Positions 22,799 to 27,545 of a stretch of DNA of 64,000 bases are shown in pieces. The notes beneath the pieces were generated by a model. That model had not been told where the DNA came from, searched no databases, and saw only the letters and a list, made by a program, of their open reading frames with translations. Positions within the stretch are counted from its first letter, which is position 1. Each line of letters opens with the position of its first letter. The position numbers were made by a program, and so were the translations under genes. The stretch lies in assembly GCA_048937405.1 (NCBI GenBank), contig JBHLNF010000015.1:661-64660 (forward strand). The letters run 5' to 3'. This DNA is from Promethearchaeota archaeon. GTDB taxonomy: Archaea > Asgardarchaeota > Lokiarchaeia > Sigyniarchaeales > SOKP01.

Positions 22799-25450
22799 TT
22801 ATATATTTTCTAATTCCTTTCTACCCTTTTCAGTTAACTTTATTATTCTATTATTATGTACTCCCTCTATTGTAATTAATCCCCTATTTAACAACTTTTG
22901 GATATTTTTCCGAGTATTTCTTGAATTAACACCAACGCTATTCGCTAAATTTAAAGTTTTTATATTCTTATTTTCCTTTGATAATTTGAAAATATGCGTA
23001 AGATACTTCTTCCAAGCCTCTCCATATTCATACTTTTTTTGTAAGGGATCTTTAATTTTTTTCGGCTTTAATTCAAAATTCTGAATATTTTGCTGAATTT
23101 CATCTTTATATATCTTTATTTGAGTTTTAAAATCATCACCAAAAATACCAGTAGGAATCGAGTTAAGATTTTTAATATGTACTGTTTTATGACAATTGGT
23201 ACATAAACATACACAGTCTTCCCTAATTAATTTCTTACATATTGATTCAATATCATATTTTTTTATTTTTTCCCATTTTAATTTGTTGTCTGCCTCTTTC
23301 AGACCTGATCTATGATGAAATTGTAACGCAGGCAGGTTATTCTTTACAGTTGTTGAATTGCATCCTATACATTTACCATCATATAATTGTTCAATAACAC
23401 TACGTTTTTTAAGCCATTCAGTAACGCGAAACTTAATATTTCTATTATAATGTGTCTCATGGTTTTTTACTTTTTCATAGAGGATTTTATCAATCTTGTT
23501 TGCAGGTATATTGAAAATATTTTCTTTTAATATTACACTTTTATATTCATTAAATAGTTTAGCTTGTTCTCTGGAATGACAATTCCCACATAACGGAATT
23601 ACTTTTTCCTTTTCGAATATCTTCATTGTCTCTTTCCAATCCTTAGTCCTTCTTTCATTCCATGTATTACCTTTTATTTTCGGATCAGAATGATGAAAAT
23701 CAACAGCGTATAAAAGTTTAGAATCAGCATTGCATTGGGCACACATTCCCTTATACTTTCTCTGATATATATTTATAATTATTTTAAATTTGTAGACCAT
23801 TGGGTTATTAGATAAAATTTTTTTATTTGGAGTATAATTAGTGGGAATTTTTCGTGGTTCAATTTTGTTTTTTGGATTATGGTTAGATGGGAGTTTTGTT
23901 CTTTCGATTTTATTTTTTGGTTTAACATTAGCTGGGGGTAATGATCTTTCAATTTTATTTTGTGGTTTAGATTTCGGTGATAGGGGTGGTTTTTCTATTT
24001 CATTTTTTAGTTTTTGATTATCTATAAATTTTTTAATATTACTCTCTGCTTTTTTATAAAATTGCTTTATTTGATCCCAATATTCTGAATTAATGATAGA
24101 TTCATAATTTTTTTTAAATTGATGAGAATGGATCATTCTTTGGCAATTTGCACATATTGCTACACAGTTTTCTCTTTTTAGTGTTTTTACAATTTCAGGA
24201 TATGGTTGAGCTAATAATCTTTTCCATTGTTTTCTGTTTGGATTCTTTAAATCTATATGATGAAATTGAAGTCCTGGTAAATTATTTTTTATAGTTATTT
24301 GTTCACAAGCAACACATTTACCATTATATAATTTGCTTATTACAGTATATTTTCTGACAAATCTTTTAAAACTAGGGCGATGATCTACATGGATATGTTC
24401 TGAGTTTTGTTTTAAAAATTTTCCAATTGCTTTTTCAATTTGGATGGCATTTAGATTCTTATCATGAAATTTCTTATCAAAATTTTGAACTAAACTTTCA
24501 TACTTACGATAATTTTTAGCCCCTTCTTTCGTATGACAGTTTTTACATTCTAAATTTACTTTTTCACTTTCCAATTTTTTCATTGCCATCTCCCAATTTT
24601 TATGCCCGAAATTAATGCGTTGAGATTTCAATCTTGGAAAAGGATGATGAAAATCTAGAGATGGAAGCCTTTCTGTACCAGTACCACATTTTTGGCATCT
24701 TCCTTTTAAAATTCCATTGTAAATATTTAGAATTATTTTCCTTTTATTTCTAAGAGAATAGATTTGTTTATATTCATCTCTACAATCTTTGCAAATACTT
24801 CTGTAATATCCCTTTTTTTTTCGGCTGTCGTTACGAAATTCAAAATTACCAATTAACTTAATTTCATGACATCGACCGCATTCTTTTTTAATTACGTCGT
24901 GATCTAGTTTTTCAGGTATACTTTCCTTTATATTTCCAGATGTTTCTATACTGTCTTTTTTATTATTCGGGGTAATTTGAGGTTTATTGGGTGCATTTTT
25001 TTGTATGAAATTTTGCGGAAAGGCTGGTTGTTTGATTGAATTTTTTGGAGTATGATCAGGGGGGATTCTATATGGTTCAATTTTGTTTTTTGGATTATGA
25101 TTAAGCGGGAGTGTTGATCTTTCAATTTTATTTTTTGGTTTAATATTAGCTGGTGGAGTTGATCTTTCAATTTTATTTTCTGGTTTAGATTTGGGCGATA
25201 GTGTTGGTTTTTCTGACTGATTTTTTGGTTTTTGATCAGTTGTCATTTTAGGGGGTTCAAATTTATTTTTAGGTTCATGGGGGGGTTTTATTGGTTCAAA
25301 TTGAATTCTGGATTTCGGGGGTGGGTTGACATTATATTCGTCGTAAATTATGAATTTTTTTTCTGTGTTGGAAATTTTATTTGGTTTATGGCGCTTTGGT
25401 TTGGAGTCTTTTTCCTGTTTTTCAGTAGGTATATCACTCTTGACATTCAT
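22799..25450 (-). CDS. Internally duplicated protein: 2 x [Pro/Lys-rich PKNKIE repeats + two HNH-like beta-beta-alpha-Me fingers] + C-terminal winged helix
   Basis: 883 aa. Four C-x2-C ... [DQ]FHH ... C-x2-C-[HQ] modules:
- CQKCGT..LDFHHPF..CKNCH
- CVACEQ..LQFHHID..CANCQRMIH
- CAQCNA..VDFHHSD..CGNCH
- CIGCNS..LQFHHRS..CTNCHKTVH

The C-terminus LANSVGVNSRNTRKNIQKLLNRGLITIEGVHNNRIIKLTEKGRKEL looks MarR/wHTH-like. Confidence 0.6.
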   Translation of the reverse strand: MNVKSDIPTEKQEKDSKPKRHKPNKISNTEKKFIIYDEYNVNPPPKSRIQFEPIKPPHEPKNKFEPPKMTTDQKPKNQSEKPTLSPKSKPENKIERSTPPANIKPKNKIERSTLPLNHNPKNKIEPYRIPPDHTPKNSIKQPAFPQNFIQKNAPNKPQITPNNKKDSIETSGNIKESIPEKLDHDVIKKECGRCHEIKLIGNFEFRNDSRKKKGYYRSICKDCRDEYKQIYSLRNKRKIILNIYNGILKGRCQKCGTGTERLPSLDFHHPFPRLKSQRINFGHKNWEMAMKKLESEKVNLECKNCHTKEGAKNYRKYESLVQNFDKKFHDKNLNAIQIEKAIGKFLKQNSEHIHVDHRPSFKRFVRKYTVISKLYNGKCVACEQITIKNNLPGLQFHHIDLKNPNRKQWKRLLAQPYPEIVKTLKRENCVAICANCQRMIHSHQFKKNYESIINSEYWDQIKQFYKKAESNIKKFIDNQKLKNEIEKPPLSPKSKPQNKIERSLPPANVKPKNKIERTKLPSNHNPKNKIEPRKIPTNYTPNKKILSNNPMVYKFKIIINIYQRKYKGMCAQCNADSKLLYAVDFHHSDPKIKGNTWNERRTKDWKETMKIFEKEKVIPLCGNCHSREQAKLFNEYKSVILKENIFNIPANKIDKILYEKVKNHETHYNRNIKFRVTEWLKKRSVIEQLYDGKCIGCNSTTVKNNLPALQFHHRSGLKEADNKLKWEKIKKYDIESICKKLIREDCVCLCTNCHKTVHIKNLNSIPTGIFGDDFKTQIKIYKDEIQQNIQNFELKPKKIKDPLQKKYEYGEAWKKYLTHIFKLSKENKNIKTLNLANSVGVNSRNTRKNIQKLLNRGLITIEGVHNNRIIKLTEKGRKELENI

Positions 25451-27545: not shown

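What the first reader, a model, noticed from the sequence alone, without database searches (positions are those of the whole stretch)
22799..27545. Co-oriented HerA/FtsK-like ATPase plus quadruple-HNH/wHTH protein next to tRNA-Asn: candidate undescribed nuclease-ATPase module
Two large minus-strand genes are separated by only 76 nt.
- The upstream gene (25527..27545) has Walker A GKTGSGKTS, Walker B-like LIMIDDAS and a HerA-like R..G...L..N.PS motif. These sit behind a ~330-aa N-terminal region I cannot place.
- The downstream gene (22799..25450) carries four C-x2-C...[DQ]FHH...C-x2-C-[HQ] HNH-type fingers as two duplicated halves. It also has Pro/Lys-rich repeats and a C-terminal winged helix.

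Pairings of HerA-type ATPases with nucleases recur in DNA end processing (HerA-NurA) and in several prokaryotic anti-phage systems. I do not recognise this particular architecture. The pair begins 10 nt after a tRNA gene. An 868-bp repeat-bearing non-coding gap and an AlbA_2-like remnant follow it, which is an accessory-island-like context.
Basis: partly seen in the sequence, partly recalled or inferred. Interest (0 to 1): 0.72.

Follow-up and report, generated by a model that had tools for sequence, protein, structure and literature searches.

The report
Asgard ATPase with four-HNH DNA-binding partner
Two adjacent genes in an Asgard archaeal genome, a HerA/FtsK-type motor ATPase and a DNA-binding protein built from four phage-like HNH nuclease modules, form a recurring but undescribed and dispensable gene cassette whose function is still unknown.

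Summary
The two minus-strand ORFs (672 aa and 883 aa) are 76 nt apart. A tRNA-Asn with two introns, missed by ARAGORN and Rfam, converges on the 3' end of the pair.

The ATPase belongs to the HerA/FtsK/VirB4 superfamily but to no named subfamily. The partner carries four HNH modules (phrog_2255 E=1.7e-33) plus a C-terminal winged helix.

The pairing is conserved: all six family-3 (HNH/wHTH) genes with a visible upstream flank follow this ATPase, usually with stop/start overlap. All relatives come from Asgard MAGs, and none from phage, plasmid or viral collections.

Its constant core is a membrane HExxH protein plus the ATPase; some distant relatives fuse a membrane domain to the ATPase. The downstream partner is swappable, and the window copy has lost the membrane protein. 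One relative shows an internal deletion, so the cassette is dispensable. Both window genes remain under purifying selection.

No known defence system matches. The best reading is an accessory, membrane-coupled DNA-translocase/nuclease module, probably conflict-related; the function is inferred, not shown.

The parts
25527..27545 (-). HerA/FtsK-superfamily ATPase, 672 aa. N-terminal domain of about 300 aa with unknown fold, then the P-loop core at residues about 300-660.
   Evidence: ORF. Pfam DUF87 25.9 bits against a cut-off of 23.2, over residues 322-367 only. Foldseek: DndH-C 6e-11, HerA 3e-10, VirB4 7e-10, TrwB about 1e-7. Family alignment has 69% mean column identity, including the N-terminal domain. 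dN/dS 0.14 against L021.
26508..26534 (-). Walker A (GKTGSGKTS, residues 338-346)
   Evidence: G338, G341, G343, K344 and T345 are invariant in 19 homologues.
25875..25895 (-). Walker B (NLIMIDD, residues 551-557)
   Evidence: N551, I553, I555 and D556 are invariant; the next residue is E or D.
22799..25450 (-). 883-aa protein with four HNH modules and a wHTH (family 3)
   Evidence: ORF. PHROG HNH endonuclease families: phrog_2255 1.7e-33, phrog_3106 2.3e-19, phrog_35854 3.2e-12, phrog_8048 1.1e-7. AF2 pLDDT is about 87-95 for residues 186-486.
24911..25450 (-). Pro/Lys-rich disordered region, residues 1-180, with 15-aa (45-nt) PKNKIE-type repeats
   Evidence: pLDDT below 50. 45-nt periodic DNA repeats. 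The same repeat type heads otherwise unrelated partner proteins in L015 and L017.
24761..24889 (-). N-terminal CxxC...CxxC zinc ribbon (residues 188-230)
   Evidence: C191, C194, C220 and C223 are invariant in 24 homologues. Weak His_Me_b4a2 hit, E=0.015. Covered by the phrog_2255 match.
24533..24697 (-). HNH module A1 (residues 252-306; CQKC...DFHH...CKNCH)
   Evidence: (PF01844 E=0.016, profile positions 1-46 of 47).
24128..24316 (-). HNH module B1 (residues 379-441; CVAC...QFHH...CANCQ). The last His is replaced by Gln.
23816..24010 (-). Second Pro/Lys-rich repeat block (residues 481-545)
   Evidence: A 209-nt DNA repeat is 82% identical to the first block. pLDDT below 50.
23573..23743 (-). 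HNH module A2 (residues 570-626; CAQC...DFHH...CGNCH)
   Evidence: PF01844 E=0.0035; phrog_3106.
23180..23371 (-). HNH module B2 (residues 694-757; CIGC...QFHH...CTNCH)
   Evidence: phrog_8048.
22802..23023 (-). C-terminal winged helix-turn-helix (residues about 810-883)
   Evidence: Foldseek hits to MarR, AspA, DtxR and AF1382, TM about 0.7 normalised to the target. Weak Pfam wHTH hits.
22652..22791 (+). tRNA-Asn(GTT) with two non-canonical introns, convergent with the 883-aa gene
   Evidence: Hand splicing plus ARAGORN. The same tRNA lies downstream of family-3 genes in L002, L004, L009, L010/11, L012/13 and L018.
27546..28413 (.). 868-bp ORF-free region where relatives carry the HExxH membrane-protein gene. 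It probably holds the promoter, and possibly a decayed remnant of that gene.
   Evidence: No tblastn trace of family 0. Only a 4.8-bit trace with heuristics off, at about 27870-28091(-). Perfect 19-nt direct repeat at 27819 and 28000.

Best explanation
The pair is the window's reduced copy of an Asgard-specific accessory cassette.

In its full form the cassette encodes a polytopic HExxH membrane protein (weakly M50-like), whose gene overlaps the start of a HerA/FtsK-type ATPase gene. A large nucleic-acid-binding partner follows, and its gene usually overlaps the ATPase stop codon.

Proposed mechanism (inferred): the ATPase forms a ring translocase held at the membrane by the HExxH protein, or by a fused membrane domain in some distant relatives. 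It threads or remodels DNA. The partner binds DNA through its winged helix and basic Pro/Lys repeats, and cuts or nicks it with its HNH modules.

The cassette is dispensable, its partner is swappable, it can occur twice in one genome, and it sits beside a tRNA gene and next to other defence-type genes. I therefore think it most likely acts in genetic conflict, for example against incoming foreign DNA, rather than in housekeeping.

In the window lineage the membrane protein has been lost and the HNH unit has doubled. Both genes are still under purifying selection.
For: Shown:
- Adjacency. The family-3 gene directly follows the ATPase in the window, L002, L004, L010/11, L018 and L024, with stop/start overlap everywhere except the window. 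All six family-3 genes with a visible upstream flank have the ATPase there.
- Membrane coupling. Family 0 lies upstream of the ATPase in L002, L004, L006/8, L010/11, L016, L018 and L024, with a remnant in L001/L015. P0048, P0076 and P0078 fuse a polytopic membrane domain to the same ATPase family.
- ATPase fold and motifs.
- HNH identity. PHROG HNH families down to E=1.7e-33. PF01844 in 22 of 25 family modules. CxxC, HH and CxxC are invariant.
- wHTH.
- An independent link between this ATPase family and HNH. In the distant L023 locus the ATPase is followed, after one gene, by a protein with two HNH_3 motifs and a family-3-like HTH segment (E=1e-15).
- Accessory nature. L020 has an internal deletion that joins ATPase residues 5-117 to partner residues 709-955, at the site syntenic with L015. 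One MAG has two copies.
- Partner swapping. Alternatives are a SIR2_2/TPR protein (upstream of the ATPase), a HATPase_c-like protein with a STAS-like protein, an LRR protein, and a Pro/Lys-repeat 960-aa protein.
- Neighbours include an MmeI-type restriction-modification enzyme (L002) and an OLD/TOPRIM protein (L010).
- Purifying selection: dN/dS 0.14 and 0.31.
Against: - No experiment supports any function.
- PADLOC calls no system. The mad8 hit (E=2.5e-13) comes from a profile built on generic PDB ATPase alignments.
- The canonical HNH Asn is not conserved, and module B1 has lost the last His.
- Foldseek did not recover a nuclease fold from the full-length model.
- In the window and its nearest relatives the cassette sits at a fixed chromosomal position among housekeeping genes, which also fits vertical inheritance of a cellular function.
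- The ATPase N-terminal domain, which is the most family-specific part, is unexplained (pLDDT 30-68).
- The window copy lacks the membrane partner, so the membrane-coupled step may not apply to it.
Confidence: 0.4

Rival explanations
1. It is a membrane DNA-transfer or DNA-uptake apparatus, analogous to Ced/Ted, conjugative coupling proteins or FtsK. The membrane proteins (families 0, 5, 6 and 7) would form a channel, the ATPase would pump DNA through it, and the HNH/wHTH protein would process the DNA, for example by nicking at a specific site as a relaxase-like factor.
For: - Membrane coupling of the ATPase by a partner protein or by fusion.
- Small membrane proteins recur next to the cassette: families 6 and 7 in L002, L008, L010, L016 and L017, and family 5 in L010 and L022.
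- The best NCBIfam hit is CedD, a DNA-translocating ATPase (E=5.8e-6, P-loop region only).
- Foldseek scores VirB4 and TrwB about as well as HerA.
- Family 6 has a weak T4SS_pilin hit (E=0.0038).
Against: - No hit reaches any curated cut-off for Ced, VirB4, VirD4 or TraC.
- No other conjugation components, relaxase or integrase are present.
- The partner protein is swappable and includes SIR2 and LRR types that make no sense for DNA transfer.
- The window copy keeps the ATPase and the HNH protein without any adjacent membrane gene.
Confidence: 0.2
2. It is the remnant of a mobile element that integrates at tRNA-Asn. The phage-type HNH genes and an element-encoded ATPase would be domesticated or decaying cargo, not a cooperating system.
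For: - tRNA-Asn lies 8-230 nt downstream of the family-3 gene, with its 3' end facing the cassette, in seven lineages whose flanks beyond the tRNA differ.
- The HNH modules are most similar to phage HNH families.
- Contigs often break just upstream of the cassette.
- Decay is seen in L020 and in the family-0 gene of the window lineage.
Against: - No integrase in the cassette and no tRNA-derived direct repeat anywhere in the 64-kb window.
- No relative in IMG/VR, INPHARED phages or PLSDB plasmids.
- No capsid or replication genes.
- Stop/start overlaps and purifying selection argue for a co-expressed, functional unit.
- The neighbouring genes family 5 and TFB look like chromosomal synteny.
Confidence: 0.17
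3. It is a housekeeping DNA end-processing or repair pair, working like HerA-NurA with HNH modules in place of NurA, or a chromosome-segregation translocase.
For: - HerA-like fold.
- Fixed position among core genes (RPA, small GTPase, L15e) in the window, L009 and L012.
- Purifying selection.
Against: - Only about 20 close homologues exist among 5.8 billion clustered proteins, all in a narrow Asgard lineage.
- Deletion and pseudogenisation occur.
- The partner is swappable.
- No NurA, Mre11 or Rad50 is detected among the adjacent genes.
- The HAS-barrel typical of HerA is not recognisable.
Confidence: 0.1
4. The two genes are neighbours without a functional link.
For: In the window they are separated by 76 nt. 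In five of eleven close lineages the ATPase has a different downstream gene.
Against: The same adjacency occurs in six independent lineages with overlapping stop/start codons, at 50-55% ATPase identity to the window. A distant branch re-creates an ATPase plus HNH/HTH pairing with a different HNH subtype.
Confidence: 0.05

Closest known systems
HerA/FtsK-superfamily ATPases paired with effectors: HerA-NurA, SIR2-HerA / DUF4297-HerA (Nezha) anti-phage systems, and DndH of DndFGH
   Same: The P-loop core has the same fold (Foldseek E=6e-11 to 1e-7). The genetic logic is also the same: a ring ATPase encoded next to a nuclease or toxic effector. One relative (L017) even carries a SIR2_2/TPR gene directly upstream.
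   Different: - The sequence relationship is only at superfamily level (PDB profile E=0.029; PADLOC HerA E=0.0027).
- The 300-aa N-terminal domain is unrelated to anything recognised.
- The ATPase is membrane-coupled.
- The effector is a multi-HNH/wHTH protein rather than NurA, SIR2 or DUF4297.
Phage HNH endonucleases with an N-terminal zinc ribbon (PHROG families 2255, 3106, 35854, 8048; Pfam PF01844)
   Same: C-x2-C ... HH ... C-x2-C-H modules. Residues 175-341 match profile positions 40-200 of 211 in phrog_2255, E=1.7e-33. The predicted strand-helix-strand-helix order fits a ββα-Me finger with an inserted helix.
   Different: - Four modules in one 883-aa chain, alternating two sub-types (A and B).
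- Fused to Pro/Lys repeats and a wHTH.
- A helix of about 30 residues is inserted between the HH and the second CxxC.
- The canonical Asn is not conserved.
- Chromosomal, and coupled to an ATPase gene.
Membrane-anchored FtsK/TrwB/VirD4/VirB4-type translocases and archaeal Ced/Ted DNA import ATPases
   Same: A motor of the same superfamily attached to the membrane by a partner protein or a fused N-terminal membrane domain. Foldseek scores are comparable. The best NCBIfam hit is CedD.
   Different: All hits are far below the curated cut-offs (25 bits against 600 for CedD). No other secretion or conjugation components are present. The membrane partner is an HExxH, weakly M50-like protein.
Two-gene ATPase + HNH defence systems such as Septu (PtuA-PtuB), and membrane-complex + HNH systems such as type II Zorya (from my own knowledge of these systems)
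   Same: An ATPase or membrane sensor encoded beside an HNH nuclease effector.
   Different: PADLOC finds no PtuA, PtuB or Zor match. PtuA is an ABC-type ATPase, not a HerA/FtsK-type one.
MADS (mad1-mad8) defence operon
   Same: The ATPase matches the PADLOC mad8 profile (E=2.5e-13, residues 307-657). In L006-8 the ATPase is followed by a HATPase_c-like protein and a STAS-like protein that weakly hits mad7 (E=4.8e-4).
   Different: No methyltransferase, kinase or specificity subunit is present in the window. The mad profiles were built from HHpred/PDB alignments and are therefore generic.

Membership tests
HerA/FtsK/VirB4 superfamily (ASCE P-loop translocases) | Walker A and Walker B motifs, conserved across the family | tested here: met
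   GKTGSGKT and NLIMIDD, with invariant core residues in 19 homologues.
HerA/FtsK/VirB4 superfamily (ASCE P-loop translocases) | RecA-like core fold matching solved members | tested here: met
   AF2 core pLDDT 75-93. Foldseek probability 1.0 to DndH-C, HerA, VirB4 and TrwB. Pfam DUF87 25.9 bits against 23.2, but over 46 residues only.
HerA proper (HerA-NurA) | N-terminal HAS barrel and an adjacent NurA nuclease (plus Mre11/Rad50 in archaea) | tested here: not met
   The N-terminal domain is not recognisable. The neighbouring gene is an HNH/wHTH protein with no NurA hit. No Mre11 or Rad50 is nearby.
Conjugative VirB4/TraC/VirD4 or Ced/Ted ATPases | Profile match above the curated cut-off, and other transfer genes in the locus | tested here: not met
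   CedD 25 bits against 600, TrbB 21 against 499, TraD 11 against 366. No such genes are in the flanks.
Viral FtsK/HerA-type genome-packaging ATPase | Match to a viral packaging family, and a capsid/virion gene context | tested here: not met
   PHROGs gives only P-loop hits at E of 7e-4 or weaker. No relatives in IMG/VR or INPHARED. No capsid genes.
HNH / His-Me finger endonuclease | Significant profile match to HNH families | tested here: met
   phrog_2255 E=1.7e-33, phrog_3106 2.3e-19, phrog_35854 3.2e-12, phrog_8048 1.1e-7. PF01844 in 22 of 25 family modules, best 1.1e-5. The window's own modules are below the Pfam cut-off (14-18 bits against 21.4).
HNH / His-Me finger endonuclease | Four Cys zinc ligands and the catalytic His | tested here: met
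   C7, C10, H23, H24, C57 and C60 are invariant in the module alignment.
HNH / His-Me finger endonuclease | Conserved Asn, and a terminal His/Asn metal ligand | tested here: inconclusive
   Asn is absent in A modules and reads N/D/S/T/G in B modules. The terminal His is at least 90% conserved, but it is Gln in window module B1.
HNH / His-Me finger endonuclease | ββα-metal fold geometry and nuclease activity | not testable with these tools
   The DSSP element order fits. Foldseek on the whole model returned only wHTH hits. Model coordinates and biochemistry were not available.
MADS defence system | mad1-8 operon including a methyltransferase, a kinase and a specificity subunit | tested here: not met
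   Only the generic mad8 profile matches. No such genes are in the window. The origin of the profile is described.
Septu / other catalogued ATPase + HNH defence systems | PADLOC profile matches to the system's proteins | tested here: not met
   No PtuA, PtuB, Zor or similar hits at E up to 1.
tRNA-integrated mobile element | Integrase, plus a direct repeat of the tRNA 3' part at the far end | tested here: not met
   No integrase among the cassette genes. The best second match to the tRNA in the window is 11 nt, at chance level.

The most novel reading that the evidence does not exclude
The cassette is a previously unrecognised Asgard-specific immune system. A membrane-tethered HerA/FtsK-type translocase, with a unique 300-aa N-terminal domain, would capture invading DNA at the cell envelope and hand it to interchangeable effectors: multi-HNH/wHTH, SIR2-TPR, GHKL-STAS, or Pro/Lys-repeat proteins. 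The shared Pro/Lys 'PKNKI' repeats would act as the docking module.
Probability: 0.3. Interest if true: 0.72.

Novelty: new variant of a known kind. Interest (0 to 1): 0.52.

Why it matters
Asgard archaea are the closest prokaryotic relatives of eukaryotes, and their conflict systems and DNA-handling machines are poorly charted. This cassette combines a well-known motor (HerA/FtsK) with a membrane anchor, an unexplained N-terminal domain and a modular set of partners. That is the design of several recently discovered bacterial defence systems, yet none of the current catalogues detects it.

If it is a defence or DNA-transfer machine, it would add a lineage-specific system to the Asgard repertoire. 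It would also give a concrete and small (2-4 gene) target for heterologous testing.

If it is only a decaying element remnant, it still marks tRNA-Asn as a variable hotspot in these genomes.

Tried and rejected
- **tRNA detection.** ARAGORN and Rfam on the raw sequence missed the tRNA. It was rescued by hand splicing.
- **Pfam, NCBIfam and PADLOC on the full 883-aa protein.** None gave an HNH hit. Isolated modules gave only sub-threshold hits. A module profile against PDB sequences was not significant (McrA E=0.26).
- **Foldseek on the full model.** Against both PDB and BFVD it returned only the wHTH. Sub-domain structure searches were not possible.
- **mad8 as evidence of MADS membership.** Rejected after reading how the profiles were built.
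- **Integrated element with att sites.** No tRNA-derived repeat was found.
- **Family-0 pseudogene in the 868-bp gap.** tblastn was negative. With heuristics off there is only a 4.8-bit trace, left as inconclusive.
- **'TFB-like' label for the 306-aa upstream protein (family 27).** Not verified by Pfam or PDB. I call it a Zn-ribbon protein only.
- **Fusion partners of distant ATPase relatives.** Pfam was uninformative, and public sources give them no names.
- **Phage and plasmid collections.** No relatives.
- **Conserved antisense ORF inside the ATPase gene (25645-25899, +).** It is conserved only because it overlaps a conserved coding region, so I dismissed it.
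Full report
**1. Observation**

The two minus-strand ORFs are exactly as described: 25527..27545 (672 aa, GTG start) and 22799..25450 (883 aa), separated by 76 nt.

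In a 19-member family alignment the whole ATPase is conserved, with 69% mean column identity.

The 883-aa protein has the following layout:

| Residues | Feature |
|---|---|
| 1-180 | Disordered Pro/Lys-rich region with 15-aa repeats |
| 191-223 | CxxC...CxxC ribbon |
| 252-306 | Module A1 |
| 379-441 | Module B1 |
| 481-545 | Second Pro/Lys block |
| 570-626 | Module A2 |
| 694-757 | Module B2 |
| ~810-883 | Winged helix |

The two halves are 35% identical over 243 aa (E=8e-44). The two Pro/Lys blocks are 82% identical at the DNA level.

ARAGORN and Rfam see no tRNA near the pair. The plus strand at 22652-22791 is nevertheless a tRNA-Asn(GTT) interrupted in the D-loop and the T-loop, and spliced versions are recognised. 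It converges on the stop codon of the 883-aa gene.

The 868-bp gap is real and contains one perfect 19-nt direct repeat that chance does not explain. The 'AlbA_2-like remnant' is not confirmed.

**2. What the proteins are**

*ATPase.*
- Pfam reaches the DUF87/HerA cut-off only over the P-loop.
- The AF2 core (residues 300-600) is confident. It matches DndH-C, HerA, VirB4, TrwB and the HerA proteins of SIR2-HerA systems about equally well.
- No curated family is reached. CedD scores 25 bits against a cut-off of 600, and PHROGs gives nothing beyond the P-loop.
- The PADLOC mad8 hit (E=2.5e-13) is not evidence of MADS membership, because those profiles were built from HHpred/PDB alignments.
- The N-terminal 300 aa are conserved in the family but modelled poorly, and they match nothing.

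*Partner.*
- Whole-protein Pfam, NCBIfam and PADLOC scans and Foldseek see only the C-terminal wHTH.
- The isolated modules each give sub-threshold PF01844 hits.
- Across the family, 22 of 25 modules hit PF01844, with a best E of 1.1e-5.
- PHROGs matches phage HNH endonuclease families strongly: phrog_2255 E=1.7e-33 over ribbon plus A1, then phrog_3106, 35854 and 8048 over the second half.
- The zinc-ligand cysteines and the HH pair are invariant. The last His is at least 90% conserved but is Gln in B1. The canonical Asn is not conserved.

HNH ancestry is therefore established. Catalytic competence is plausible but untested.

**3. Distribution and context**

Each protein has only about 20 close homologues among 5.8 billion clustered proteins. 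An exhaustive profile search enlarges the ATPase family to 88 clusters at E of 1e-30 or better. All of these are rare and unnamed.

Named genome records are Promethearchaeia/Promethearchaeota and one Hodarchaeota MAG. Nothing is found in IMG/VR, INPHARED phages or PLSDB plasmids.

Family 3 is the HNH/wHTH protein family to which the window's 883-aa protein belongs. A family-3 gene follows the ATPase in the window, L002, L004, L010/11, L018 and L024, usually with overlapping stop and start codons. Every family-3 gene whose upstream flank is visible has the ATPase there.

The most constant neighbour, however, is a roughly 252-aa polytopic HExxH membrane protein (family 0). It is weakly M50B-like (E=0.006), and its gene overlaps the ATPase start. 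In three distant relatives a polytopic membrane domain is instead fused to the ATPase.

The downstream partner varies between loci:
- a 960-aa protein that shares only the Pro/Lys PKNKI repeats (L001/L015, L017);
- a HATPase_c-like protein plus a STAS-like protein (L006-8);
- a 373-aa protein plus an LRR protein (L016);
- a 527-aa protein (L019).

In L017 a SIR2_2/TPR protein sits upstream of the ATPase, in the position of family 0.

In the distant branch where the ATPase carries a fused membrane domain, L022 has an overlapping 885-aa protein with HTH repeats. L023 has a protein with two HNH_3 motifs and a family-3-like HTH segment (E=1e-15). That is an independent second link between this ATPase family and HNH/HTH proteins.

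**4. Accessory nature**

- L020 is syntenic with L015 but carries an internal deletion that joins ATPase residues 5-117 to partner residues 709-955.
- One MAG has two copies with different partners.
- An MmeI-type restriction-modification enzyme (L002) and an OLD/TOPRIM protein (L010) are neighbours.
- tRNA-Asn lies just downstream of the family-3 gene in seven lineages, although the genes beyond it differ.
- Against recent mobility, there is no integrase and no tRNA-derived repeat.
- The window, L009 and L012 share the same flank of small GTPase, 146-aa protein and RPA.

**5. The window copy**

Family 0 is absent. tblastn is negative, and only a 4.8-bit trace appears with heuristics off. In the closest relative (L021, 77% identity) the ORF overlapping the ATPase start keeps only the basic tail of family 0.

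Family 5 and a true TFB gene flank the cassette in relatives. In the window they lie 14 kb away, at 41465-43219, so an older block has been split.

Both window genes remain under purifying selection. dN/dS is 0.14 for the ATPase, and 0.31 for residues 186-486 of the partner.

**6. Interpretation**

The pair is a real and conserved but reduced copy of an undescribed Asgard cassette. It is built on a membrane-coupled HerA/FtsK-type motor with exchangeable DNA-binding or effector partners.

I favour a conflict-related DNA-translocase/nuclease module (confidence about 0.4). The rivals are a DNA-transfer apparatus (0.2), a remnant of a tRNA-Asn-targeted element (0.17), housekeeping repair (0.1) and coincidental adjacency (0.05).

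- Shown: gene structure, homology, adjacency, membrane coupling by fusion or partner, dispensability and selection.
- Inferred: ring formation, DNA translocation, nuclease activity and the biological role.

I found no description of this cassette in the Asgard mobile-element and virus literature I searched.

Noticed in passing
window 22652-22791 (+): tRNA-Asn(GTT) with two non-canonical introns of about 31 nt each, one in the D-loop and one in the T-loop. It is invisible to ARAGORN and to the Rfam tRNA model on the raw sequence. Other multi-intron tRNAs in this window may be missed in the same way.
   Followed up: yes
window 27819-27837 and 28000-28018: A perfect 19-nt direct repeat, CAAGTGATAATAATGGTTT, 181 nt apart, in the ORF-free region upstream of the ATPase. 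It is unique in the window (0 of 100 shuffles give two matches). Its function is unknown; it could be a regulator binding site or a remnant.
   Followed up: partly
window 23858-23970 and 25076-25188: In-frame 45-nt tandem repeats encode the PKNKIE-type peptide repeats. The two blocks are 82% identical at the DNA level, while the flanking HNH halves are only 35% identical as protein. This suggests gene conversion or recent repeat exchange. The same repeat type heads unrelated partner proteins in L015 and L017.
   Followed up: partly
window 41465-43219 (+): A family-5 membrane protein (210 aa) lies next to a bona fide TFB gene (295 aa). In relatives (L002, L010, L018, L022) family 5 and/or a Zn-ribbon protein flank the ATPase cassette. 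The window lineage therefore seems to have separated them by about 14 kb.
   Followed up: partly
L017 6932-9895: A 987-aa SIR2_2 + TPR protein lies directly upstream of the ATPase, where other loci have the HExxH membrane protein. This recalls SIR2-HerA defence pairs.
   Followed up: partly
L006 3254-4343 (also L007, L008): The ATPase is followed by a HATPase_c-like 268-aa protein and a STAS-like DUF4325 100-aa protein that weakly hits PADLOC mad7. Together with the mad8-like ATPase hit this mimics the end of the MADS operon.
   Followed up: partly
L020 4243-5285: An internal deletion joins ATPase residues 5-117 to residues 709-955 of the 960-aa partner, at a site syntenic with L015 (185-aa gene, RtcB, Archease).
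   Followed up: yes
L022 5685-7541 (-) and L014 5887-7590 (+): A second, different DUF87/FtsK_SpoIIIE-type ATPase lies within a few kb of the cassette in two loci. The L022 copy has N-terminal membrane helices.
   Followed up: no
window 37087-40698 (-): A 1203-aa ORF with no annotation attempted. It lies between an MFS-like membrane protein gene and the family-5/TFB genes.
   Followed up: no
For the 93-aa ORF, Pfam gives only DUF6911 at E=0.04, so that label is unconfirmed.
   Followed up: partly
window 24000-27000: G+C content is 0.31-0.34 over the cassette, against about 0.25-0.28 for most of the window. The rise is mild and could simply reflect conserved coding sequence.
   Followed up: no
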